A stretch of DNA of 44,269 nt from Bacteroidales bacterium (GTDB taxonomy: Bacteria > Bacteroidota > Bacteroidia > Bacteroidales > WCHB1-69), in contig JAZUEE010000073.1 in NCBI GenBank assembly GCA_045639985.1, positions 1 to 44,269 on the forward strand. The letters run 5' to 3'. The stretch's first letter is position 1. Every line of letters begins with the position of its first letter. Positions 341 to 43,700 of this stretch are shown piece by piece. A program made the translations under genes and the position numbers. Under the pieces are notes generated by a model. The model worked only from the letters and a program-made list of their open reading frames with translations, had not been told where the DNA came from and searched no databases.

Positions 341-371
341 TTTGGTATTTAAATAACTATACTTATATTTG
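341..371 (+). promoter_or_regulatory. Bacteroidota-type promoter, early-promoter repeat copy 1 (TTTG 341-344, 19-nt spacer, TATATTTG 364-371)
   Basis: Matches TTTG-N19-TAnnTTTG. The ~100-nt block 331-427 recurs at 9581-9678, 34651-34752 and 37721-37818. Confidence 0.7.
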
Positions 372-395
372 CATTCGGAAATAATGACCAACGCA

Positions 396-411
396 CCGGG
401 GCGGTTCCCGG
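396..411 (+). promoter_or_regulatory. Leader hairpin CCGGG-GCGGTT-CCCGG, 16 nt upstream of the ATG at 428
   Basis: Perfect 5-bp stem with a 6-nt loop, followed by ATAAAACA. Same design at seven other leaders. Confidence 0.7.
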
Positions 412-427
412 ATAAAACATAAAGATT

Positions 428-709: not shown

Positions 710-780
710 TGCCCTGTGGTGTAATGGTAACACACCAGATTTTGGTTCTGGTATTCACGGTTCGAGTCCGTGCGGGGCAA
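710..780 (+). tRNA. tRNA-Gln (anticodon TTG)
   Basis: Hand-folded cloverleaf. Acceptor TGCCCTG/CGGGGCA; D stem GTGT/ACAC with loop AATGGTA. Anticodon stem CCAGA/TCTGG with loop TT-TTG-GT; T stem CACGG/CCGTG with loop TTCGAGT. 71 nt, no encoded CCA. Confidence 0.88.
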
Positions 781-798
781 CAAAAACATAAAATATAA

Positions 799-3097: not shown

Positions 3098-3142
3098 CAC
3101 ATAACCGGGTGCGGCATTGTCCGCACCCATGTTTCAAACGAT

Positions 3143-3658
3143 ATGAAAAAGTTAATCCCACGTTTAAGGTCGGTCATTGAATACAATCGCATGGAAAAGT
3201 TAACCCCACAACAAAAAGCGGCCATTGAATACAACCGCCGTTTGGCAAACAGGGAGTTTAAAGAGCCAGAAGCATTATGCGGAAAAACGCGTTATGACTT
3301 GATGATAACGCCTGAATTTGAAACCATTTTGACGGCTTATATCAACGAACAGGTGGAAACACGAACAAAGGTATTGGAAACAATCGCCGAGTTGAAGAAA
3401 AAGGGTAAAATGGTTGCCGAGAATCGCCCAACGATTGACCGCGTTATGGAATTGGGCATAATGAATGATCCGGCAGATTTTGCCGTTGCATTCGTTGATG
3501 TTGAAAATAAGCAAAGTAAATATCCGGCCGACATTCGTTTGTATATCCATCAGTTGGGGATGAAGGCATTTAATGCAACGATTGAAAAGTTCATCTGTGA
3601 TGCCAACCCGGATATGGCCGAATTACGCAAGACTGCAATGTCATCATCTAAAAACTAA
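3143..3658 (+). CDS. hypothetical protein (171 aa)
   Basis: ATG ORF 12 nt after an 8-bp hairpin (GGGTGCGG/CCGCACCC). Contains a duplicated IEYNR peptide, seen as an 18-nt direct repeat at 3175 and 3223. Confidence 0.7.
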   Translation: MKKLIPRLRSVIEYNRMEKLTPQQKAAIEYNRRLANREFKEPEALCGKTRYDLMITPEFETILTAYINEQVETRTKVLETIAELKKKGKMVAENRPTIDRVMELGIMNDPADFAVAFVDVENKQSKYPADIRLYIHQLGMKAFNATIEKFICDANPDMAELRKTAMSSSKN

Positions 3659-3953: not shown

Positions 3954-4381
3954 AACGCCGCGAAATATCAGCATCGGGCATTATCAACGCCAACGGTGCC
4001 TTGGCAATGTACATGGGCGAGGTAAACGCGTTCTTTGCAAGCAATAAAGGCCAAAGGGTTGTTGCTCGTTTCATTGTAGCACCCAAAGCATCTTCCGATG
4101 CGTTGAAAGGATATTATTACCATTACGTTGTACCAACCATCAAGTTTGGCATCTGGAACACGGGGGATAGAAAGACCGAGCAGCAAACAGAATTGTTCTT
4201 GCGTTCCATTTCTCCTGTCTGCCATGAAGAAACCGTGAACGAAGAAACAGGCGTTTACAATCACAGGTTGCGAGAGATACCAGAGCTTGACAATACCGAG
4301 TTGATTGACCACATTGAAACAATCCGGCAATTCGCCGCAGAAAACTTGAATGTGTTTGTTGATGACCCAAGAACATTATGA
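3950..4381 (+). CDS. hypothetical protein (143 aa)
   Basis: ATG at 3950 forms an ATGA overlap with the upstream stop. The track start at 3938 is a TTG codon. Confidence 0.7.
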   Translation: MKRREISASGIINANGALAMYMGEVNAFFASNKGQRVVARFIVAPKASSDALKGYYYHYVVPTIKFGIWNTGDRKTEQQTELFLRSISPVCHEETVNEETGVYNHRLREIPELDNTELIDHIETIRQFAAENLNVFVDDPRTL

Positions 4382-4578: not shown

Positions 4579-5337
4579 ATGATTGATTTTAGCGAAATTG
4601 TTTACTTTGACTGTGAAACAACAGGCTTGCCGCCAAAGGATGCCAAATGGGATGTTGACTTTGAGCAATTCCCACGCATTTGCCAATTGTCTTGGATTTA
4701 CAATGGCAAGGAAGAAAACCACATTATCAAGCCGGAAGGTTGGACAATCCCACAGGAAGCCACCGATGTACATGGCATAACAACTGAATATGCCTTGGAA
4801 TATGGCGAACCGATTGCCGATGTAATGGCGCAATTCCTGCTTGATTGCTCACAGGCGAAATTGATATGCGGCCACAACATTTACTTTGATGTGTCAACCA
4901 TTAAATCCGAGCTGATGCGTGCGCAAGCATACGGAGAAATAGCCGAGCAAGCTTTGTTCAAGGGCAAGCGCATTGACACCATGCGCCCATCAATGAAATT
5001 CGTTGATGCCAGATTTTCCAATGGCCGTTTGAAATTTCCAAAATTGGAAGAGTTGTATGCACGATGCTTTCCGGGCGAAAGCTTCCCGGCGCATGATGCG
5101 ATTGAGGATGTGCGTGCCGTTGTTCGTTGTCTGCCTGTATTGGTTGAAAAAGGCATCATTGAACTTGTGGTTAAGGAGTACCCGGAAGAAACGGCCAATA
5201 ACGCCCCAATTTCGCAAGATGTAACCAAAGTGGATAAAGTACCCACACAGGAAGAAAAACGCCCGCAGAACGAAAATCCGGCTAAAATAACGCCAAACGG
5301 TAGGTTGGCCGAAATGTTGGCCGATGAAAATTTTTAA
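4579..5337 (+). CDS. DnaQ-like (DEDDh) 3'-5' exonuclease (252 aa)
   Basis: ExoI VYFDCETTGL, ExoII GHNIYFDVSTI, ExoIII FPAHDAIEDVRAV (H-x4-D). Confidence 0.85.
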   Translation: MIDFSEIVYFDCETTGLPPKDAKWDVDFEQFPRICQLSWIYNGKEENHIIKPEGWTIPQEATDVHGITTEYALEYGEPIADVMAQFLLDCSQAKLICGHNIYFDVSTIKSELMRAQAYGEIAEQALFKGKRIDTMRPSMKFVDARFSNGRLKFPKLEELYARCFPGESFPAHDAIEDVRAVVRCLPVLVEKGIIELVVKEYPEETANNAPISQDVTKVDKVPTQEEKRPQNENPAKITPNGRLAEMLADENF

Positions 5338-9325: not shown

Positions 9326-9498
9326 AATGCGGCACATGTGGCAATACTGAATTGGAAAGCCGTTTTGATGCCTTTGCATATTGCACGAAAAATGATATCT
9401 TTGTGTCCAGAGAACAGGGCGCATGCATATCGCATACCGCTTTGCAGAAGGAAAACAAAATAGGGTTTCGGCCCGAATATGTCAAGCAAGCAAAATAG
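9307..9498 (+). CDS. hypothetical protein (63 aa) with N-terminal CxxC
   Basis: ATG ORF, last gene before a strong terminator. Confidence 0.55.
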   Translation: MDINQLKCGTCGNTELESRFDAFAYCTKNDIFVSREQGACISHTALQKENKIGFRPEYVKQAK

Positions 9499-9852: not shown

Positions 9853-9857
9853 GAACA

Positions 9858-9875
9858 GGGGCGGTTACCCGCCCC
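9858..9875 (+). terminator. Hairpin GGGGCGG-TTAC-CCGCCCC (terminator-like, no U tract)
   Basis: 7-bp GC stem with the same stem sequence as the hairpin at 38069-38086, which closes the other single-gene early cassette. Confidence 0.5.
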
Positions 9876-9893
9876 ACCAAAATACAACAGGCA

Positions 9894-9909
9894 CCGGGGC
9901 CATTCCCGG
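9894..9909 (+). promoter_or_regulatory. Leader hairpin CCGGG-GCCATT-CCCGG, 21 nt upstream of the ATG at 9931
   Basis: Same formula, followed by AAACGATAAAACA. Confidence 0.65.
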
Positions 9910-10589: not shown

Positions 10590-10603
10590 TAAAACAATTG
10601 GAT

Positions 10604-11821
10604 ATGTTACAAATTGAGTTACGGAAATTATCTTCTTTGAAACCGCACCCAGACAACCCGCGCAAATCAGTTCCGGGCGGCGTTGAAAAACTTGCGGAAT
10701 CAATCAAAGGCAATCCAAACTATTTCAATGCAAGGCCGATTGTGCTTTCCAATCGCACAGGCGAGTTTGTGATCATTGATGGCGAACGCAGAAGCGAAGC
10801 TGCATTGTATCTGGGCATGGAACAAGTGCCGACAATCCTCATGGAAGGATTGACATACGAAGATGAGTTGGAAATCCTTGTGAAAGGCAACACCCACACC
10901 GGCGTTTGGGATGAGGTAAAACTTGCCACCGATAAATGGAACGCGGCCAAACTCAAAGAATGGAACTGCGATGCCAAATGGAAAACCCCGGCCAAACCTG
11001 TTTCCGAAGATGATTTTGATGGCAACACGGAAAAGATAATCGTGCGCTGCAAGCCGGGCGATGTGTGGCAGCTTGGCAATCATCGTTTGATGTGCGGCGA
11101 TTCAGTCAAGTTGGAAGATGTGCAAAAGCTGATGGGGGGGGGTACAATAAAAGCTGACATGGTATTTACCGACCCGCCGTATGGCGTTTCTATTGGCGAT
11201 AAAAACAAAATGCTTAACTCCGTTCAGCGGTCGGGAAAGTGTGTTGAAAACATCGCAAATGACACCTTGACATCGGAAGAGTTATACCCTATTCTGGTAA
11301 ACGCCATGACCAATGCAAGGTTGAGTTGCAAGGATGATGCATCATATTTTGTTACTGCACCGCAAGGCGGCGAGTTGGGATTGATGATGATGATGATGAA
11401 GGATGCCGGATTGCCTGTACGCCACAATTTGATATGGCGCAAAAATAGTGCAACCTTCTCATTGGGCAGATTGGATTACGATTACCAACACGAACCGATA
11501 ATATACACGTGGACAAAATCGCACCACAATTACCGAGAAGGAAAGTATCGCACGACAATATGGGACTTTGACAAACCAAGGAAATGCGACTTACACCCGA
11601 CAATGAAACCCGTTGAATTGGTGGCCAATTGCTTGATGGATTGCACAAAAGAAAACGATGTTGTCCTTGATGTGTTCGGCGGCTCTGGTACAACAATGAT
11701 CGCCGCAGAGCAATTGAACCGAAAAGCATGTTTGATGGAGCTTGACCCACACTATTGCGATGTAATAATTGCACGATGGGAGAAATACACAGGCCAACAG
11801 GCTACAAGAATTGAAAATTAG
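10604..11821 (+). CDS. ParB-like nuclease domain fused to an N6/N4 DNA methyltransferase (405 aa)
   Basis: N-terminal ParB-type LKPHPDNPRK...IIDGERR. MTase motif IV is FTDPPYG and motif I is DVFGGSGTTMIAAEQL (beta-class order). The track start 10598 is TTG; the ATG is at 10604. Confidence 0.88.
   Translation: MLQIELRKLSSLKPHPDNPRKSVPGGVEKLAESIKGNPNYFNARPIVLSNRTGEFVIIDGERRSEAALYLGMEQVPTILMEGLTYEDELEILVKGNTHTGVWDEVKLATDKWNAAKLKEWNCDAKWKTPAKPVSEDDFDGNTEKIIVRCKPGDVWQLGNHRLMCGDSVKLEDVQKLMGGGTIKADMVFTDPPYGVSIGDKNKMLNSVQRSGKCVENIANDTLTSEELYPILVNAMTNARLSCKDDASYFVTAPQGGELGLMMMMMKDAGLPVRHNLIWRKNSATFSLGRLDYDYQHEPIIYTWTKSHHNYREGKYRTTIWDFDKPRKCDLHPTMKPVELVANCLMDCTKENDVVLDVFGGSGTTMIAAEQLNRKACLMELDPHYCDVIIARWEKYTGQQATRIEN
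11134..11142 (+). repeat. G9 homopolymer at the ParB/MTase domain junction
   Basis: Read directly as atg ggg ggg ggt. A change of one G in either direction meets a stop within 2-5 codons. Confidence 0.9.
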
Positions 11822-11915: not shown

Positions 11916-12419
11916 ATGGCAAACACAAAGTACAATGCGGAAATAGTAAAGGCGATTTGCGATGAATTGCGCAACGGCGAAAACATTGAACGTGTGTGTG
12001 TAAAGGTGGGGATAACCAAGACCACCTTTTTTGATTGGATCAAGCGCAAACCTAACTTTTCTAACGCCGTACAAAAGGCAAAGGATGAGTTCAGCAAAAC
12101 GATTGTGTCCAAGTTGGAAAAATCGTTGTGGGATGTTGCTATGGGATATTCTTACGAAGAAACAAAGACCGAGTACACAAGCGACAAGAACGGCAACCCA
12201 ATAATCAGCAAGCAGACAACCACCACGAAAAAGGTTGCGCCCAACGTGGCCGCATTGATATTTGCCTTAACGAACCGTGCGCCGGAAGAATGGAAGAATA
12301 GGCAGACAACCGAGGTAAACGCCAATGTCAAGGCCGAGAACGTGAACAAGCCAGATTTGTCGGCCATCCCGGATGAGTTGTTGGGACAGGTGTTGAACAA
12401 GATTAACGGCGGCGAGTAA
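11916..12419 (+). CDS. terS: terminase small subunit (167 aa)
   Basis: N-terminal HTH-type segment (YNAEIVKAICDELRNGENIERVCVKVGITKTTFFDWIKRKPNF) typical of small terminases. TAATG overlap with the large subunit gene. Confidence 0.7.
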   Translation: MANTKYNAEIVKAICDELRNGENIERVCVKVGITKTTFFDWIKRKPNFSNAVQKAKDEFSKTIVSKLEKSLWDVAMGYSYEETKTEYTSDKNGNPIISKQTTTTKKVAPNVAALIFALTNRAPEEWKNRQTTEVNANVKAENVNKPDLSAIPDELLGQVLNKINGGE

Positions 12420-13933
12420 TGGCAAATCTTTCTGCATTGGATTTCAAGATTGAAGGCGCACGCCGTAAATTGTTATGGTTCGCCCAATACATGAACCCAC
12501 GATTCAAGCCAACGCCGTTCCATACTGCGTATTACCGCGTGTTGGATATGTTCGCATCTGGGCAGATTCAAAACCTCATCATCCAGGCACCGCCGCAGCA
12601 TGGCAAATCGGAAGGATCAAGCCGTAATCTTCCGGCCAAGATGTTGGGAATGTTCCCGGACAAGAAAATAATCCTTTGTTCCTATGCTGCCACCATTGCC
12701 AAGGATTTCAACAGGGATGTGCAGAAGCTTATTGACACACCCGAATACAATGCCGTGTTCCCGGATACAACCTTGAATGGTTCAAACGTGGTAACGGTGG
12801 CCGCAAATAGTCTGCGAAATTCCGATGTGTTCCAGATCGTAGGCCACACGGGCGAATTTCGTGTTGTTGGCCGTGGTGGTGCGCTGACATCCAAAACGGC
12901 AGATGTCATGATATTTGATGACTTGTACAAGGATTCAAGCGAAGCAAACTCGCCGATTATCCGTGCCGGTGCATGGGATTGGTACACGAAGGTAGCACGA
13001 ACACGATTGCACAACGATTCGCAACAATTGATTGTGTTTACCCGTTGGCACCCGGAAGATATCATTGGCAAAATCATTGACAACGAACAAGTGATTGTTG
13101 TTGAGAAATGGGCAGATTTTGACAACATACCCAAGGGCGCATGGGTTCTGGTAAACTTTGAAGCAATCAAGACAAGCGACCCCACGGAAATTGACCCACG
13201 TGAAAAGGGTATTGCCCTGTGGAATGACCGCCATAGCATTGAACGATTGGAAGCGATGCGCAAGATTGACCCCGTAGGCTTTCAATGCTTGTACCAAGGT
13301 TCGCCCGGCGATGCGGCGGGCAGATTGTATCAGCCATTCAAGACGTGGGTTGATAAGGCCGATTGGGGAACATTGGTGCGCAAGGGTTGTTACATTGATG
13401 TGGCCGATGAAGGCAACGATTTCTTGGCTGGTGCGACATACGACATTTACAAGTCAACGGAACATGCGTGGAACGAACACAAGAAACGATTTGAGCCGAT
13501 TTTGTATGCGCTGATAACCGATGTCCAGTATACTGATGAGAACACCGATGTAACAACGATTACGGTGCCGCGCATGATAAACGAACAGGGTGCGGAAAAA
13601 GTATGGGTTGAGAGCAACAACGGCGGTTCGCAGTTTGAAAAGACAATCAAACGCAAGGTTCGTGCGATAACGGTGCCATTCTATCAGGGCGCAAACAAGG
13701 AAAGCCGAGTTGTTACCAATGCGCCATTTGTCAACCAATCAATCGTAATGCCGTTTGGATGGGAAACGAGATATCCAAAGTTCTACAAAGCAATTACCGA
13801 GTTTCTCCGTGCCTTTGGTGCAAACGAACACGATGATGCTGCCGATATGCTCACGGGCATCTACGAAAAGGAAATTGCAGACAACAACACAATGCCATAC
13901 GGCCACGCAAACAGGGGTGTGCGTGTTCATTAG
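12419..13933 (+). CDS. terL: terminase large subunit (504 aa)
   Basis: Walker A QAPPQHGKSEGSS, Walker B VMIFDDLYKD, C-terminal nuclease-type acidic motifs (HDDAADML). Confidence 0.88.
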   Translation: MANLSALDFKIEGARRKLLWFAQYMNPRFKPTPFHTAYYRVLDMFASGQIQNLIIQAPPQHGKSEGSSRNLPAKMLGMFPDKKIILCSYAATIAKDFNRDVQKLIDTPEYNAVFPDTTLNGSNVVTVAANSLRNSDVFQIVGHTGEFRVVGRGGALTSKTADVMIFDDLYKDSSEANSPIIRAGAWDWYTKVARTRLHNDSQQLIVFTRWHPEDIIGKIIDNEQVIVVEKWADFDNIPKGAWVLVNFEAIKTSDPTEIDPREKGIALWNDRHSIERLEAMRKIDPVGFQCLYQGSPGDAAGRLYQPFKTWVDKADWGTLVRKGCYIDVADEGNDFLAGATYDIYKSTEHAWNEHKKRFEPILYALITDVQYTDENTDVTTITVPRMINEQGAEKVWVESNNGGSQFEKTIKRKVRAITVPFYQGANKESRVVTNAPFVNQSIVMPFGWETRYPKFYKAITEFLRAFGANEHDDAADMLTGIYEKEIADNNTMPYGHANRGVRVH

Positions 13934-34660: not shown

Positions 34661-34691
34661 TTTGGTATTTAAGGGAATAGTGTTACCTTTG
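34661..34691 (+). promoter_or_regulatory. Early-promoter repeat copy 3 (TTTG 34661-34664, 19-nt spacer, TACCTTTG 34684-34691)
   Basis: Consensus match and alignment with copies 1, 2 and 4. Confidence 0.7.
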
Positions 34692-34720
34692 CATTCGGGT
34701 TGAGGGTTCAACCACACCGG

Positions 34721-34736
34721 CCGGGCGGGTTCCCGG
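34721..34736 (+). promoter_or_regulatory. Leader hairpin CCGGG-CGGGTT-CCCGG, 16 nt upstream of the ATG at 34753
   Basis: Same formula, followed by ATAAACA. Confidence 0.7.
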
Positions 34737-36786: not shown

Positions 36787-37377
36787 ATGGAAAGCGATAC
36801 AAACCCAATTATTGAGGAATTACAGATGGTTGCCATGCTGCCAATGGCTGATCATCAAAAAAGATATTTCAACCAGATGTTGGCCGATGCCAAGCCGGTG
36901 CAATGTACTCCGTTGGCCGAGTTGTTTTCTAAAGAGGAATTGGCCGAAATTCGTAGAGTGATACGGCCACGAAAGCACCAATGTTACAACAACGCATTGA
37001 AATGTGCCGAAAGTCTGCCGGACAAGATAAAATACGTTGAAGGGTTCGGATGGAATGGCTTGTGCAAGGTTGAACACGCATTCAACAGGATTGGCAATGT
37101 GTATGTGGATATTACTTGGGATATGGTCTTGGGTCACGATGTGACAAAGGAAGCTTATGTGTCGTTAATAGAGGATGATGCCGAAAACGTATTGCGCAAC
37201 GTGGCCGAATACGATAACATCACGGGCGATTATTACAGGCGCAAATACATTGAAAGCCTTGGCGGCATCCATGAGGTCGGCAAGATGCTTGATGATCAGG
37301 CGGAAAAGGCGTTAAACAAAAAGGATGGCACCGTTTCCGATGCCATCCACGCAATACTGAAAAGCGATACGAGGTAA
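36787..37377 (+). CDS. hypothetical protein (196 aa)
   Basis: ATG ORF. Its first 13 nt, ATGGAAAGCGATA, are identical to the start of 38522..39859. Confidence 0.65.
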   Translation: MESDTNPIIEELQMVAMLPMADHQKRYFNQMLADAKPVQCTPLAELFSKEELAEIRRVIRPRKHQCYNNALKCAESLPDKIKYVEGFGWNGLCKVEHAFNRIGNVYVDITWDMVLGHDVTKEAYVSLIEDDAENVLRNVAEYDNITGDYYRRKYIESLGGIHEVGKMLDDQAEKALNKKDGTVSDAIHAILKSDTR

Positions 37378-37436
37378 TGCGATGAACAAAGATAGTAATT
37401 TTTTATATCTTTGCGATGGATTCCATAAGCTTTTCG

Positions 37437-37474
37437 CCCCAGATGTTCGGCCATAGCATCTGGGGTTTATTTTT
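37437..37474 (+). terminator. Rho-independent terminator
   Basis: 9-bp stem CCCCAGATG (37437-37445) / CATCTGGGG (37457-37465), followed by TTTATTTTT. Confidence 0.8.
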
Positions 37475-37477
37475 GGG

Positions 37478-37529
37478 GGTTCACGGAAATTTGCAACCGG
37501 TTCACAGGGGGTTCACGCAACCGGTTCAC
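37478..37529. repeat. Iteron array: four GGTTCAC repeats at 37478, 37499, 37510 and 37523
   Basis: GGGGGTTCACG and CAACCGGTTCAC alternate twice. Spacings are 21, 11 and 13 nt. AACCGGTT is an 8-bp palindrome. Confidence 0.8.
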
Positions 37530-37570
37530 GCATGGATTGTCGTATTTTTTTGTTATGGGGTTATCGTTTT

Positions 37571-37582
37571 CGTAACGTTACG
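37571..37582. repeat. 12-bp perfect palindrome CGTAACGTTACG
   Basis: Self-complementary sequence read directly, within the intergenic region. Confidence 0.8.
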
Positions 37583-37641
37583 AATATGGTATGGCCATGG
37601 TGGCCGCAAACAAGGCCGTACAGGGCATTTGATGTTCCGGC

Positions 37642-37701
37642 GGCACAATGTACCATGCGCCCATACAAATGCCGTTATACACAAAATTCCCCAAAAATAA
37701 C
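37642..37701 (+). promoter_or_regulatory. 60-nt conserved module copy C (box GGCACAATGTACC 37642-37654)
   Basis: Identical box and 39-nt spacing to AAAATAAC. Lies 76 nt upstream of the -33 element of early promoter copy 4, the same geometry as copy B. Confidence 0.7.
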
Positions 37702-37729
37702 TGATTGTATAAAAATTAGTGCAATTTAT

Positions 37730-37760
37730 TTTGGTGTTTAAATAAAGTTTTGTATTTTCG
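37730..37760 (+). promoter_or_regulatory. Early-promoter repeat copy 4 (TTTG 37730-37733, 19-nt spacer, TATTTTCG 37753-37760)
   Basis: Aligns base for base with copy 1. The -7 box has one mismatch to TAnnTTTG. Confidence 0.6.
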
Positions 37761-37784
37761 TGGTCGGAAATAGTAACCAACGCG

Positions 37785-37800
37785 CCGGGGCGGTTCCCGG
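37785..37800 (+). promoter_or_regulatory. Leader hairpin CCGGG-GCGGTT-CCCGG, 18 nt upstream of the ATG at 37819
   Basis: Identical to the hairpin at 396-411. Confidence 0.7.
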
Positions 37801-37818
37801 ACTAAAAAACACAAGATT

Positions 37819-38064
37819 ATGGCAAACAACGTAACAAAAACATTCAACGGCAAGAAATACACCTATTCAATCAACGGCAGAGCATACAGACAATCAACAC
37901 GTGATTTCAAATATGCTTGTGTTGCCATATCAAGAGTTGCAAAAGGTGCAGCAAGTGAAGGTAATGAGTTCATTATATCGTTGGGCAATCATTATCAAAG
38001 CACATATAATTCCATGGCTCGTTTCTATGACCATTGCGACCTTCGTATTGAAGAAATTAAATAA
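37819..38064 (+). CDS. hypothetical protein (81 aa)
   Basis: Single ORF between early promoter copy 4 and the hairpin at 38069-38086. Confidence 0.65.
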   Translation: MANNVTKTFNGKKYTYSINGRAYRQSTRDFKYACVAISRVAKGAASEGNEFIISLGNHYQSTYNSMARFYDHCDLRIEEIK

Positions 38065-38102: not shown

Positions 38103-38333
38103 ATGTTTAGAATAGAAGAAGCGATTGCCCGCGCAAAGACACAGGGCAACAAGGTAATGAAAAGGGATATTGCTGCCCGCCTGTGGCCGGATAGCACCCC
38201 GGCCGCACAACAGGTCAATATGACCAAGTTGTGTACGGGCAAGACATCTGGCGTGAAACCCGAGTGGGTTGCCATTGTCTGCGAAATGACAAATTGTACT
38301 GCGGATTATCTTTTCGGTTTGAGCAATGAGTGA
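38103..38333 (+). CDS. XRE-family helix-turn-helix transcriptional regulator (76 aa)
   Basis: KRDIAARLWPDSTPAAQQVNMTKLCTG...ADYLFGLSNE is the typical Cro/CI-type HTH with the YLFGL C-terminus. Confidence 0.8.
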   Translation: MFRIEEAIARAKTQGNKVMKRDIAARLWPDSTPAAQQVNMTKLCTGKTSGVKPEWVAIVCEMTNCTADYLFGLSNE

Positions 38334-40717: not shown

Positions 40718-41509
40718 ATGGAAGCAAAAACATTTAAGATTGATAACTACATTAATGTTCCGGGATTTGCGGTTGTAGAACATAAATTATCCGGCAATGA
40801 GTTGTTGTGTTATTCGCTGATTTATGGGTTTACGCAAGATGAAGAAACGGAATTTCGTGGTTCATTGACATACGTTGCATCGGCATTGAATATTACAAAA
40901 CAAAATGCCAAAAAGGTTATTGACCGATTATTGGAACGTGGGTTGTTAACCAAAAAAGAAATGTATTTTTCCGGCGTGAAATTTTGCCATTATGTTGCAA
41001 ATCGCAATAGCAATGGCGTTGCTGAAATAGCAACGGGGTGTTGCCGAAACAATAACGGGGGCGTTGCTGAAATAGCAACGGGGGGTATGGCTAAAACAAT
41101 AACGAATAATACTATAAGACATAACTCTAATGATAATATAAAAGATAATATCGCCGATGGCGGTTTATTTCCAACCGCCCCTGTAACATGCGAAAGGAAA
41201 CAACCAGACACCCACGAACCAAGATGCCATTTTGCCGAAAGCAAGTTCAATGCGTTTGCCGACTTTGCCGCGCAGTTTACCGCCCCGGACTTTGCCAACG
41301 TTGACATTGAGTATTACTACAAAGCCGTGGCCGATTGGTCGGCACAGGATGATAAGAACAAGAAAAACGATTGGATTGCAACGGCACGCAACTTTATGCG
41401 CCGTGATGCGGAACAAAAGAAGCTGCACACCTTGGCACAGGTACAACAGGAAACAACAAGCCATCTGGATGATGCAGATTTGAGATACTTGCAGATGTGT
41501 AACGATTAA
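40718..41509 (+). CDS. replication initiator/organiser-like protein with N-terminal winged HTH (263 aa)
   Basis: LSGNELLCYSLIYGF...GSLTYVASALNITKQNAKKVIDRLLERGLL is typical of phage replisome-organiser N-termini. The gene contains an iteron array. Confidence 0.55.
   Translation: MEAKTFKIDNYINVPGFAVVEHKLSGNELLCYSLIYGFTQDEETEFRGSLTYVASALNITKQNAKKVIDRLLERGLLTKKEMYFSGVKFCHYVANRNSNGVAEIATGCCRNNNGGVAEIATGGMAKTITNNTIRHNSNDNIKDNIADGGLFPTAPVTCERKQPDTHEPRCHFAESKFNAFADFAAQFTAPDFANVDIEYYYKAVADWSAQDDKNKKNDWIATARNFMRRDAEQKKLHTLAQVQQETTSHLDDADLRYLQMCND
40994..41083. repeat. Putative origin iterons inside the initiator gene (four GTTGC-N5-GCAAC-type units, about 23-nt period)
   Basis: GTTGC occurs at 40994, 41018, 41040 and 41063. 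The exact 24-nt repeat GGCGTTGCTGAAATAGCAACGGGG lies at 41015-41038 and 41060-41083, each with the inverted repeat GTTGCT/AGCAAC. Confidence 0.65.
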
Positions 41510-43413: not shown

Positions 43414-43700
43414 TGGAAAAGGTGTTCAAGGGTTGCCGATGCCCGCAAGGCAAAGCGGATGTTGATTCGGCGCAATGCCGTTCATGCGGCCATTATGTCC
43501 GCGACCTGGGAACATTCATTGTGTGTTCGTGTCCGGCACAGGAAAAGGCCAACGAAAAGGAACAAAGTATTGCATCCGTAACTCCAAAAAAGGCCACCAA
43601 GAAACCTGCAAGCACGAAACAAAAGGCCAAAGGAAAGGCCAAGCAGACAAAGACCGCAAACAAGGCCAAAAAGCGCGGAAGGCCGCGTAAGGCAAAATAA
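43413..43700 (+). CDS. Cys-rich protein with Lys-rich tail and AT-hook (95 aa)
   Basis: N-terminal CRC...CRSC...CSC. C-terminal KKATKKPASTKQKAKGKAKQTKTANKAKKRGRPRKAK contains the RGRP AT-hook core. Confidence 0.6.
   Translation: MEKVFKGCRCPQGKADVDSAQCRSCGHYVRDLGTFIVCSCPAQEKANEKEQSIASVTPKKATKKPASTKQKAKGKAKQTKTANKAKKRGRPRKAK

What the first reader, a model, noticed from the sequence alone, without database searches (positions are those of the whole stretch)
37378..37818. 440-bp non-coding hub: terminator, four GGTTCAC iterons, 12-bp palindrome, palindromic box, early promoter
The following elements are packed between 36787..37377 and 37819..38064:
- A 9-bp-stem terminator at 37437-37474.
- The array GGGGGTTCACG-N8-CAACCGGTTCACA-GGGGGTTCACG-CAACCGGTTCACG at 37478-37529. 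The repeat starts are 21, 11 and 13 nt apart, roughly one or two helical turns, and the array contains AACCGGTT palindromes.
- The perfect palindrome CGTAACGTTACG at 37571-37582.
- Module copy C.
- Early promoter copy 4.

The track ORF 37416..37700 runs through all of these and is very unlikely to be coding. Helically phased direct repeats immediately upstream of the XRE regulator region look like a multi-site operator, a second origin, or a packaging or partition site. The GGTTCAC repeat is unrelated to the GTTGC iterons in the initiator gene, so the two arrays probably bind different proteins.
Basis: partly seen in the sequence, partly recalled or inferred. Interest (0 to 1): 0.65.

Follow-up and report, generated by a model that had tools for sequence, protein, structure and literature searches.

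The report
Phage repeat array shared with mobile element
A non-coding stretch of a gut Bacteroidales-type phage holds four evenly spaced copies of GGTTCAC that look like a protein landing pad, and nearly the same array sits in front of the DNA-replication genes of an unrelated chromosomal mobile element, which suggests the phage and the element are linked through one DNA-binding protein.

Summary
Window 37378-37818 is non-coding. It contains a terminator, four same-strand GGTTCAC copies spaced 21, 11 and 13 nt, a 16-nt perfect palindrome, and the phage's standard promoter and leader module. GGTTCAC is the only 7-mer in the window with at least 4 copies in 60 nt (0 of 100 shuffles).

About ten related phage loci lack the array, including one whose XRE protein is 72% identical. 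The array lies in a roughly 300-nt lineage-specific insert. It is therefore unlikely to be the XRE operator, and it is unrelated to the origin iterons inside the initiator gene.

A 40-nt core (37 of 40 identical) with the same four-site layout occurs in gut-metagenome contigs. These carry an integrative element with an integrase, an HTH fused to an AEP primase, a DUF3987 helicase and restriction-modification cargo. There the array lies just upstream of the primase operon and is inherited with it. Related elements carry a different four-repeat array and a different HTH at the same place.

Best reading (about 0.4): an iteron or operator-type pad for an excisionase-type HTH, coupling the phage to the element's replication module. 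Which partner benefits is unresolved. Rivals are an operator for a phage-encoded protein, a recombination relic, and a packaging site. I class it as a new variant of a known kind.

The parts
37436..37474 (+). Intrinsic terminator: stem 37437-37445 / 37457-37465 plus a T run. It closes the small-gene operon that ends with 36787..37377.
   Evidence: (I13). It lies 59 nt after the stop codon. It is absent from the syntenic relative L038.
37475..37529 (+). Four-site direct-repeat array. GGTTCAC cores are at 37478, 37499, 37510 and 37523. It is built as two units of GGGGGTTCACG...CAACCGGTTCAC, and each unit contains an AACCGGTT palindrome (37495-37502, 37519-37526).
   Evidence: (D1, D4). Positions 37491-37530 are 92.5% identical (37/40) to the array in L041, L043 and L046, and 35/38 identical to L044.
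37539..37558 (+). T-rich run GTCGTATTTTTTTGTTATGG directly after the array. It could be an easily melted stretch or a weak -7-like box (TTTTTTTG, 5/6).
   Evidence: Element loci also have a T run after their arrays.
37569..37584 (.). Perfect 16-nt palindrome TTCGTAACGTTACGAA, a candidate site for a dimeric regulator. Its function is unknown.
   Evidence: The same 16-mer in five unrelated viral contigs is at chance level and sits in unrelated contexts.
37467..37478 (.). Left arm of a 12-nt perfect inverted repeat (TTATTTTTGGGG). It overlaps the terminator T run and reads TAttTTTG on the + strand.
   Evidence: (I5). It closes the predicted fold of 37467-37700 (z = -2.4 and -2.7, with boundaries chosen after seeing the repeat).
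37689..37700 (.). Right arm of the 12-nt inverted repeat (CCCCAAAAATAA). It reads TAttTTTG on the - strand.
   Evidence: (I5).
37585..37688 (.). Spacer of about 49% G+C, against 30-38% in the promoter stretch that follows. It has local hairpins (for example GGCATTTG 37624-31 / CAAATGCC 37666-73). No homologue was found and no function is assigned.
   Evidence: (I22).
37730..37760 (+). Bacteroidetes-type promoter of the next early operon: -33 TTTG at 37730-33, 19-nt spacer, -7 TATTTTCG at 37753-60.
   Evidence: It is the same architecture as the perfect 10/10 sites at 364, 9396, 9612, 10513 and 34684.
37764..37818 (+). Conserved 5' leader module with hairpin CCGGGGCGGTTCCCGG (37785-37800), running up to the ATG at 37819.
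   Evidence: It is conserved in L038 and L017. It gives a sub-threshold skipping-rope hit (18.1 bits).

Best explanation
The hub is a composite boundary between two early-type operons: terminator, four-site array, T run, palindrome, spacer, then the standard promoter and leader.

The unusual part is the 55-bp array. I read it as a landing pad on which a sequence-specific winged-helix/HTH protein binds head to tail, one monomer per GGTTCAC site and roughly one site per helical turn.

The array is homologous to one that precedes the replication operon of a Bacteroidales integrative element. That operon encodes an excisionase-type HTH fused to a BT4734-like AEP primase, followed by a PriCT_2 + DUF3987 helicase. 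In the element, the array and the HTH most likely form the origin-recognition and self-control unit of that module, in the manner of iterons.

The phage acquired the array inside a roughly 300-nt lineage-specific insert. In a cell that supplies the cognate protein, most simply a resident element, the phage chromosome would be bound at this site. The site could then act as an element-dependent second origin, or as a sink that titrates the element's initiator or repressor.

Shown: the array is real, non-random and non-coding. It is absent from related phages, homologous to the element's array, and inherited with the element's primase module.

Inferred: the identity of the binding protein, that binding occurs in the phage, and which partner benefits.
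For: Non-randomness:
- GGTTCAC is the only 7-mer with at least 4 copies in 60 nt; 0 of 100 shuffles match this.
- 4 of 6 GGTTCAC copies and 2 of 2 AACCGGTT copies in the window are here.

Not coding:
- The ORF through the region has 0 homologues among 1.84 billion representatives.

Lineage-specific:
- No array is present in L017-L025 or L038.
- L038 keeps the flanking gene end and the promoter/leader, but has only about 50 nt where the window has about 310.

Homology to the element:
- An exact-pattern scan found L041, L043, L044 and L046.
- BLAST gives 37/40 identity, E = 3e-10 against all fetched loci.
- The match extends 12/15 beyond the bases fixed by the search pattern.
- Both arrays have four same-strand sites. 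The element's spacings are 10, 11 and 13; the phage's are 21, 11 and 13.

Element anatomy:
- Tyrosine integrase, excisionase-type HTH, HTH + BT4734-like AEP primase, PriCT_2 + DUF3987 helicase, and variable restriction-modification or defence cargo.
- BT4734 is an AEP primase family, and DUF3987 proteins are predicted helicases of mobile elements (PMC5862659).

Linkage:
- Between L041 and L044 the upstream gene is diverged, but the array, leader and primase are 96-100% identical.

Co-variation:
- Elements whose primase and helicase are about 65% identical carry a different array at the same position: 4 x TCTATTC spaced 10, 11 and 10, plus an inverted copy.
- They also carry an unrelated HTH (DUF3853).

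Other candidate binders:
- The XRE is conserved in array-less relatives.
- The array does not resemble the initiator's iterons.
Against: - The shared sequence is only about 40 nt and is seen in one phage.
- No phage protein resembles any protein of the element, apart from a methyltransferase fragment. The phage therefore encodes no recognisable cognate binder.
- Co-occurrence of the phage and the element in one host was not shown.
- The co-variation argument rests on only two element types.
- The HTH-binds-array step is untested. The helicase's C-terminal HTH (IPTAERYIR) is a second candidate, although it is conserved across both array types.
- No strong promoter overlaps the array in either the phage or the element, so operator and origin roles cannot be separated.
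- A site that lets a defence-carrying element bind the phage should be selected against unless the phage gains from it.
Confidence: 0.4

Rival explanations
1. The array is the operator for a phage-encoded early protein, which uses it to control read-through or a weak promoter just downstream. The integrative element copies the site in front of its replication operon so that it can sense infection by this phage. This would resemble P2 Cox boxes on P2 and on the satellite P4.
For: - The array sits between a terminator and promoters, 15 nt before a -7-like box.
- All four cores are perfect, which suggests selection acting in the phage.
- In the element the array precedes the operon that would need to be switched on.
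- The P2 Cox / P4 P_LL cox-box precedent is from my own knowledge and was not checked here.
Against: - The array is absent from all related phages, so the binder would also have to be lineage-specific.
- The only nearby lineage-specific gene, the 81-aa ORF 37819..38064, occurs in many phage contexts without any such array.
- In the element family the array co-varies with the element's own HTH.
Confidence: 0.2
2. The array is a recombination relic. A past exchange with an element of this family, or with a phage carrying its replication module, left the array and flanking DNA in a tolerant intergenic spot, and it has no present function in the phage.
For: - The array lies in an insert at a junction that varies between relatives.
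- The phage has no cognate protein.
- The phage already has a standard origin inside its initiator gene.
Against: - Only the array is similar; the flanks show no trace of homology. This fits selective retention better than a recent scar.
- All four GGTTCAC cores and both 13-nt GCAACCGGTTCAC copies are intact.
- The phage array has its own arrangement (R1 displaced by 11 nt) but still keeps four sites.
Confidence: 0.2
3. The array is a packaging (pac or cos-binding) or partition site, which the element shares so that it can be packaged as a satellite by this phage's terminase.
For: - Phased direct repeats are typical of TerS-binding sites, and helper and satellite phages often share packaging signals (general knowledge).
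- The fetched parts of the element contain no packaging genes.
Against: - TerS/TerL are at 11916-13933, 18-25 kb from the array.
- The array lies between two early-type operons.
- In the element it is tied to the primase module and changes together with the HTH.
- The ParB_N domain in the phage is fused to a methylase, so it is not part of a partition system.
Confidence: 0.07
4. The region 37467-37700 is a structured non-coding RNA, or a small inverted-repeat mobile insert, bounded by the 12-nt perfect inverted repeat. On this reading the GGTTCAC copies are part of its structure.
For: - There is a 12-nt perfect inverted repeat.
- Predicted folds on both strands are somewhat more stable than shuffles (z = -2.4 and -2.7).
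Against: - There is no Rfam match.
- No second copy exists in the window or in any fetched locus.
- There is no target-site duplication.
- The boundaries were chosen from the repeat itself, which inflates the z-scores.
- The left arm is simply the terminator's T run.
- The element shares only the array, not the rest.
Confidence: 0.05
5. The array is a multi-site operator of the adjacent XRE-type regulator (38103..38333).
For: The array is about 570 nt upstream of the XRE gene in the same transcription unit region.
Against: - XRE homologues that are 72% identical, with a near-identical helix-turn-helix stretch, occur in L038, and related ones occur in L017 and L023. None of these loci has the array.
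- XRE proteins usually bind palindromes, not four direct repeats.
Confidence: 0.03

Closest known systems
Origin 'type 1' iterons of satellite phage P4 (TGTTCACC), bound by the winged-helix domain of the alpha primase-helicase
   Same: - Short direct repeats spaced 10-11 nt, as annotated in NC_001609 at ori and crr.
- They belong to an integrative element built from an integrase plus a primase-helicase.
- The GTTCAC core is literally shared.
- The primase-helicase carries its own DNA-binding domain (PMC2777425).
   Different: - The primase here is an AEP (BT4734-like), not DnaG-type, and the helicase is a DUF3987 protein.
- The shared 6-mer may be coincidence. Related elements use TCTATTC instead.
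- In P4 the iterons are not present on the helper phage. Here a phage carries them.
Cox boxes of phage P2 and its satellite P4 (arrays of direct repeats bound by the helper's Cox protein); from my own knowledge, not checked here
   Same: The same array of phased direct repeats occurs on a phage, in its early control region, and on an integrative element, in front of an operon that must be activated. One winged-helix protein reads both.
   Different: - No Cox/Xis-like protein was found in this phage.
- In the element family the array varies together with the element's own HTH, which points to an element-encoded binder.
Iteron-type origins of plasmids and phage-inducible islands (direct iterons plus inverted copies at the rep promoter)
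   Same: - Four phased direct repeats lie next to the replication genes.
- The L047-type relatives add an inverted copy, as in rep operators.
- A T-rich run follows the array.
   Different: - In the phage the array is not next to any replication gene of that type.
- The phage's own initiator has separate iterons inside its gene.
Lambda-type origin inside the initiator gene (O-like)
   Same: The window has such an origin: four iterons of about 23 nt at 41013-41104, inside an O-like initiator.
   Different: The GGTTCAC array is a different sequence. It is intergenic and 3.5 kb away.

Membership tests
Intrinsic (Rho-independent) terminator | G+C-rich stem-loop followed directly by a T run | tested here: met
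   9 perfect pairs (12 with G-T), 6 G-C pairs, then TTTATTTTT.
Intrinsic (Rho-independent) terminator | Located at the 3' end of a transcription unit, on the coding strand | tested here: met
   It lies 59 nt after the stop of 36787..37377, and all genes are on the + strand.
Upstream array of BT4734-primase/DUF3987-helicase integrative elements | Sequence homology of the array | tested here: met
   37/40 identical to L041, L043 and L046; 35/38 identical to L044.
Upstream array of BT4734-primase/DUF3987-helicase integrative elements | Four same-strand sites about one helical turn apart | tested here: met
   Phage spacings are 21, 11 and 13. The element's are 10, 11 and 13. The L047 type's are 10, 11 and 10.
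Upstream array of BT4734-primase/DUF3987-helicase integrative elements | Lies directly 5' of the HTH-primase-helicase operon and is inherited with it | tested here: not met
   In the phage the next genes are an 81-aa ORF, the XRE, an exonuclease and others. No BT4734 or DUF3987 gene is present.
Iteron-type replication origin | At least 3 direct repeats in helical phase | tested here: met
Iteron-type replication origin | Adjacent A+T-rich unwinding element | tested here: inconclusive
   Only a 20-nt T-rich run at 37539-37558. G+C measured in 100-nt windows stays at 45-49%.
Iteron-type replication origin | Cognate initiator encoded by the same replicon | tested here: not met
   The phage has no homologue of the element's HTH, primase or helicase. 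The phage's own initiator has different iterons.
Iteron-type replication origin | Replication starts there | not testable with these tools
   This needs marker-frequency analysis or 2D gels.
XRE/CI-type operator | Sites conserved together with the regulator in relatives | tested here: not met
   The XRE is 72% identical in L038, which has no array.
XRE/CI-type operator | Palindromic sites overlapping the regulated promoter | tested here: not met
   The array consists of direct repeats about 200 nt upstream of the -33 box. The 16-nt palindrome lies about 145 nt upstream.
pac/cos packaging site | Next to or inside the small terminase gene | tested here: not met
   TerS is at 11916..12419.
pac/cos packaging site | Genome termini or packaging-series start maps there | not testable with these tools
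   This needs virion-DNA read starts.
Cox/Xis-type direct-repeat operator | A Cox/Xis-type winged-helix protein encoded by the phage | tested here: inconclusive
   Pfam, PHROGs and NCBIfam on about 30 phage proteins, and phmmer against the element's HTH, found none. Not every small ORF was scanned.
skipping-rope RNA (RF02924), for the leader module 37753-37809 | Score at or above the Rfam gathering threshold | tested here: not met
   18.1 bits against a threshold of 36.7. The copy at 364-420 gives no hit.
Miniature inverted-repeat element | Terminal inverted repeats plus target-site duplication plus multiple copies | tested here: not met
   The 12-nt inverted repeat is present, but there is no duplication at the flanks and no other copy.

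The most novel reading that the evidence does not exclude
The integrative element is a P4-like satellite or defence island of gut Bacteroidales, built from an integrase, an HTH-AEP primase, a DUF3987 helicase and swappable restriction-modification or defence cargo. It is functionally coupled to this phage through the shared four-site array.

There are two possible directions. The replicating phage could titrate or recruit the element's HTH-primase, which would switch on or hijack the element's replication module. Alternatively, the phage could use the resident element's primase-helicase as a host-dependent second origin.

If true, this would be the first sequence-level evidence of phage-satellite cross-talk in Bacteroidales.
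Probability: 0.25. Interest if true: 0.85.

Novelty: new variant of a known kind. Interest (0 to 1): 0.6.

Why it matters
Phage satellites and phage-responsive islands are well described in Proteobacteria and Firmicutes. They are essentially undescribed in Bacteroidales, the dominant gut order. One full-text search for phage satellite + Bacteroides + primase + integrase found no paper.

A short, testable DNA element links a phage to a common integrative primase-helicase element that carries defence cargo. The element's primase protein clusters have 127 and 610 member sequences.

This gives a concrete experimental handle: one 55-bp site, one candidate HTH protein, and clear deletion and binding experiments. 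If the link is real, it shows how such elements sense or exploit phages in the gut. If it is not, the array is a clean example of a mobile iteron module left in a phage intergenic hot spot.

Tried and rejected
- Close relatives of the phage: none found. The flanking proteins have no exact record. Nothing turned up in IMG/VR for the 196-aa or 81-aa proteins. There was no megablast hit in GenBank phages, and only the XRE matched weakly.
- Contexts of the 81-aa gene's homologues (L026-L034): unrelated phages with ordinary promoters and no arrays.
- Relation of the array to the initiator-gene iterons: the local alignment score is at chance level.
- Rfam: nothing at gathering threshold. At relaxed E-value there are only weak hits.
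- A loose pattern scan in IMG/VR gave chance coding hits plus unrelated phages whose own iterons happen to contain GGTTCAC (L004/L009, L006, L002/L010/L016). This is analogy, not homology.
- Palindrome scan in IMG/VR: the five loci are all in unrelated contexts, which is a chance-level result.
- Plasmid database: no match to the array or to the element module.
- The element's 221-aa protein has no relative in IMG/VR.
- The 196-aa phage protein family compared with the element's 407-aa protein: no relation. Neither flanking phage family has a match among solved structures.
- Arm-type or Xis sites of the element's integrase: rejected, because the array lies 3.6 kb from the element's end next to mnmE.
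- Promoter scans: only sub-consensus boxes lie next to the arrays in both the phage and the element, so they do not decide between an operator and an origin.
- Homology beyond the 40-nt core between the phage insert and the element leaders: none.
Full report
**1. What is in the sequence**

Window 37378-37818 lies between the stop codon of a 196-aa gene (36787..37377) and the ATG of an 81-aa gene (37819). Every plausible gene in the window is on the + strand. The region contains the following, in order.

- A small hairpin at 37387-37413.
- An intrinsic terminator. The arms are 37437-45 and 37457-65, followed by a T run to 37474.
- The array GGGGGTTCACG-GAAATTTG-CAACCGGTTCAC-A-GGGGGTTCACG-CAACCGGTTCAC-G at 37475-37529.
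- A T-rich run at 37539-37558.
- A perfect 16-nt palindrome, TTCGTAACGTTACGAA, at 37569-37584.
- About 100 nt of G+C-richer spacer with local hairpins.
- A Bacteroidetes-type promoter: TTTG at 37730-33, a 19-nt spacer, then TATTTTCG at 37753-60.
- A conserved leader with the hairpin CCGGGGCGGTTCCCGG at 37785-37800.

The GGTTCAC cores start at 37478, 37499, 37510 and 37523, giving spacings of 21, 11 and 13.

Four of the six GGTTCAC copies in the window lie here, and so do both AACCGGTT copies. GGTTCAC is the only 7-mer anywhere in the 44 kb with at least four copies inside 60 nt. None of 100 dinucleotide-preserving shuffles produced such a cluster.

The ORF that runs through the region (37416..37700) has no homologue among 1.84 billion representative proteins.

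**2. Genome context**

The window looks like a complete genome of about 44 kb from a Bacteroidales-type tailed phage.

- Its only GenBank phage matches are weak ones, to an Alistipes phage and a Bacteroides phage, both in the XRE gene.
- TerS, TerL, portal and capsid lie at 11.9-19.6 kb.
- The replication genes run from 38.5 kb onwards. They include a PD-(D/E)XK exonuclease, a Gp3-like protein, and an O-like initiator with four internal iterons of about 23 nt at 41013-41104. They continue across the window ends.
- Perfect promoters of the form TTTG-19-TAnnTTTG occur on the + strand at 364, 9396, 9612, 10513 and 34684. The one at 37753 scores 9/10.
- The promoters at 364, 34684 and 37753 are followed by the same leader module, and a weaker leader-hairpin copy lies near 9856-9909.

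The hub therefore separates two operons driven by the same early-type module. It is 18-25 kb from the terminase genes.

**3. Related phages lack the array**

Relatives were found through the exonuclease (L017-L025, 42-72% identity) and through the 196-aa protein (L038, a syntenic 43.5-kb contig).

- None has a GGTTCAC cluster or any other repeat array at the equivalent junction.
- L038 keeps the 3' end of the upstream gene nearly base for base, and it keeps the promoter and leader. It has only about 50 nt where the window has about 310, at roughly 37404-37715.
- The terminator, array, palindrome and spacer are therefore a lineage-specific insert.
- The XRE-type protein next door is 72% identical in L038 and is also present in L017 and L023. 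This argues against the XRE as the array's binder.
- The array also shows no significant similarity to the initiator's iterons.

**4. The array has a homologue in an integrative element**

I ran an exact-pattern scan for GGGGTTCACG-N0-10-CAACCGGTTCAC over metagenome contigs and over one genome per species.

- It returned four gut contigs: L041, L043, L044 and L046. It also returned two high-G+C coding hits that look like chance.
- The four contigs carry GGTT-GCAACCGGTTGCA-A-GGGGGTTCAC-GCAACCGGTTCAC-GG.
- BLAST gives 37/40 identity to window 37491-37530, with E about 3e-10 against everything fetched.
- The similarity extends 12 of 15 positions beyond the bases fixed by the pattern.
- The layout is the same: four same-strand sites, GGTTGCA twice then GGTTCAC twice, spaced 10, 11 and 13.
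- Nothing outside the array is alignable.

**5. What the element is**

In L044 the gene order is as follows.

- The 3' end of host mnmE.
- An excisionase-type HTH_17 protein.
- A tyrosine integrase with an arm-binding domain.
- A 407-aa protein of unknown function.
- The array.
- A leader of about 145 nt.
- A 221-aa protein whose N-terminus is an excisionase/MAD1-type HTH and whose remainder is a BT4734-like AEP primase domain.
- A PriCT_2 + DUF3987 protein.
- Cargo: a C5 methylase with a TdeIII endonuclease, and a ParB_N-ATPase pair.

L043 has the same core with different cargo, namely AccI restriction-modification and an IS66 piece. BT4734-like proteins are an AEP primase family, and DUF3987 domains are predicted helicases of mobile elements (PMC5862659). 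The element is therefore an integrative, self-replicating island with swappable defence cargo. The fetched parts contain no capsid, packaging or relaxase gene.

**6. The array belongs to the primase module**

- Between L041 and L044 the upstream 407-aa gene is strongly diverged. From about 30 nt before its stop codon onward, the array, leader and primase are 96-100% identical.
- Elements whose helicase is 65% identical (primase about 66%) carry a different array at the same place (L047-L058). It has four TCTATTC sites spaced 10, 11 and 10, plus an inverted copy that forms a terminator-like hairpin.
- Those elements also have a different, unrelated HTH gene (DUF3853) at the head of the operon.
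- The helicase's C-terminal HTH (IPTAERYIR) is the same in both types.

The array sequence therefore varies together with the leading HTH. The simplest inference is that this HTH reads the array. It rests on two types only and is not proven. Excisionase-type winged-helix proteins typically bind head to tail on phased direct repeats. That point is general knowledge and was not tested here.

**7. Mechanism and rivals**

Main model (confidence 0.4). The array is an iteron or operator-type pad for the element's HTH(-primase). In the element it marks or controls the replication module. In the phage it couples the phage chromosome to that protein when the protein is present. The result would be an element-dependent second origin or a titration site.

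Points against the main model:
- The shared stretch is only 40 nt, in one phage.
- The phage has no cognate protein.
- No shared host has been shown.
- Neither array overlaps a strong promoter.

Rivals:
- A phage-encoded binder, with the element eavesdropping, as with P2 Cox boxes on P4. Confidence 0.2. It is weakened because the array is lineage-specific and no candidate gene arrived with it.
- A recombination relic. Confidence 0.2. It is weakened by four intact cores and by retention of only the array.
- A packaging or partition site. Confidence 0.07. The array is far from TerS and tied to the primase module.
- An RNA or a small mobile insert bounded by the 12-nt inverted repeat 37467-78 / 37689-700. 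Confidence 0.05. The folding z-scores of -2.4 and -2.7 use boundaries chosen after seeing the repeat, and there are no other copies.
- The XRE operator. Confidence 0.03.

**8. Comparison with known systems**

- The closest working analogue is the origin of satellite phage P4. The GenBank record annotates 'ori type 1 repeats', TGTTCACC, spaced 10-11 nt in ori and crr. [quoted passage not shown]
- The GTTCAC core is shared, but related elements use another motif, so I treat this as analogy and not homology.
- The P2 Cox / P4 cox-box system is the closest precedent for one repeat array occurring on both a phage and an integrative element. This is from my own knowledge.
- The phage array fails the membership test for the element's module, because no primase operon follows it. 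It also fails the test for a classical iteron origin, because the phage has no cognate initiator.

**9. Other parts of the hub**

- The 16-nt palindrome is a plausible site for a dimeric regulator, but nothing links it to a protein. Its matches in IMG/VR are in unrelated contexts, and I judged them likely chance hits.
- The 12-nt inverted repeat is unexplained. Each arm reads TAttTTTG, the Bacteroidetes -7 consensus, on its own strand. Scores of 9/10 occur about once per 1.2 kb.
- The promoter and leader module is a family-wide feature.
- One copy of that module gives a sub-threshold hit to the skipping-rope RNA (18.1 bits against 36.7).

**10. Verdict**

The new finding is the homologous array on an integrative primase-helicase island. 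I class it as a new variant of a known kind (iteron or operator arrays, and phage-satellite shared sites) and score its interest at 0.6. The reading that this is real phage-island cross-talk in Bacteroidales has a probability of about 0.25 and would merit about 0.85.

Noticed in passing
window 364-427, ~9856-9909, 34684-34736, 37753-37818; L038 4810-4864 and 2938-2965; L017 2993-3016 and ~4160-4230: A promoter (TTTG-19-TAnnTTTG) plus a conserved 5' leader with hairpin CCGGGGCGGTTCCCGG recurs in front of several operons and is conserved in related phages. The copy at 37753-37809 gives a sub-threshold hit to skipping-rope RNA (18.1 bits against 36.7).
   Followed up: partly
window 37467-37478 and 37689-37700: A perfect 12-nt inverted repeat (TTATTTTTGGGG / CCCCAAAAATAA) brackets the array, the palindrome and the spacer. 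Each arm reads as a Bacteroidetes -7 box on its own strand. It remains unexplained.
   Followed up: partly
window 41013-41104: Four iterons of about 23 nt (GGGGCGTTGCTGAAATAGCAACG, each an inverted repeat) lie inside the O-like initiator gene 40718..41509. This is probably the phage's own origin.
   Followed up: partly
window 36787-37377: The 196-aa protein family has invariant Cys66, His97 and Asp108 and no Pfam or PDB match. It may be an uncharacterised Cys-His-Asp enzyme that is widespread in Bacteroidales phages and elements.
   Followed up: partly
window 37819-38064: The 81-aa gene has homologues of 55-75% identity in many unrelated phage contexts. In several of these it sits behind a Bacteroidetes-type promoter of its own. 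It behaves like a mobile small gene.
   Followed up: partly
window 43589-43663, 41231-41264, 36880-36941: Other short same-strand 7-mer triplets occur within 60 nt: AAGGCCA, TTTGCCG and TTGGCCG. All three lie within coding regions.
   Followed up: no
L047 2383-2450; L058 815-885: Relatives of the integrative element carry a different four-site array (TCTATTC spaced 10, 11 and 10) plus an inverted copy that forms a terminator-like hairpin. It lies upstream of a DUF3853 HTH and primase operon.
   Followed up: partly
L044 6713-13033; L043 2441-6239: The integrative element carries variable defence cargo: C5 methylase with TdeIII, a ParB_N-ATPase with a 302-aa partner, or AccI restriction-modification with an HTH_3 protein and an IS66 fragment. 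It looks like a defence island with a hot spot downstream of the helicase.
   Followed up: partly
L004 ~3100-3240; L009 ~9330-9470; L006 ~5100-5260: Unrelated viral contigs have their own iterons with a GGTTCAC core (GGTTCACTAGGGGAAC x4; AACCGGTTCACTGAC x4), inside or next to initiator-like genes.
   Followed up: no
window 710-781 and 1278-1360: Two tRNA genes, Gln(TTG) and Leu(CAA), lie among the early genes.
   Followed up: no
window 10598-11821: A ParB_N domain is fused to an N6/N4 DNA methylase. This is the only phage protein with any similarity to an element protein (33% over 63 aa, to a methylase).
   Followed up: no
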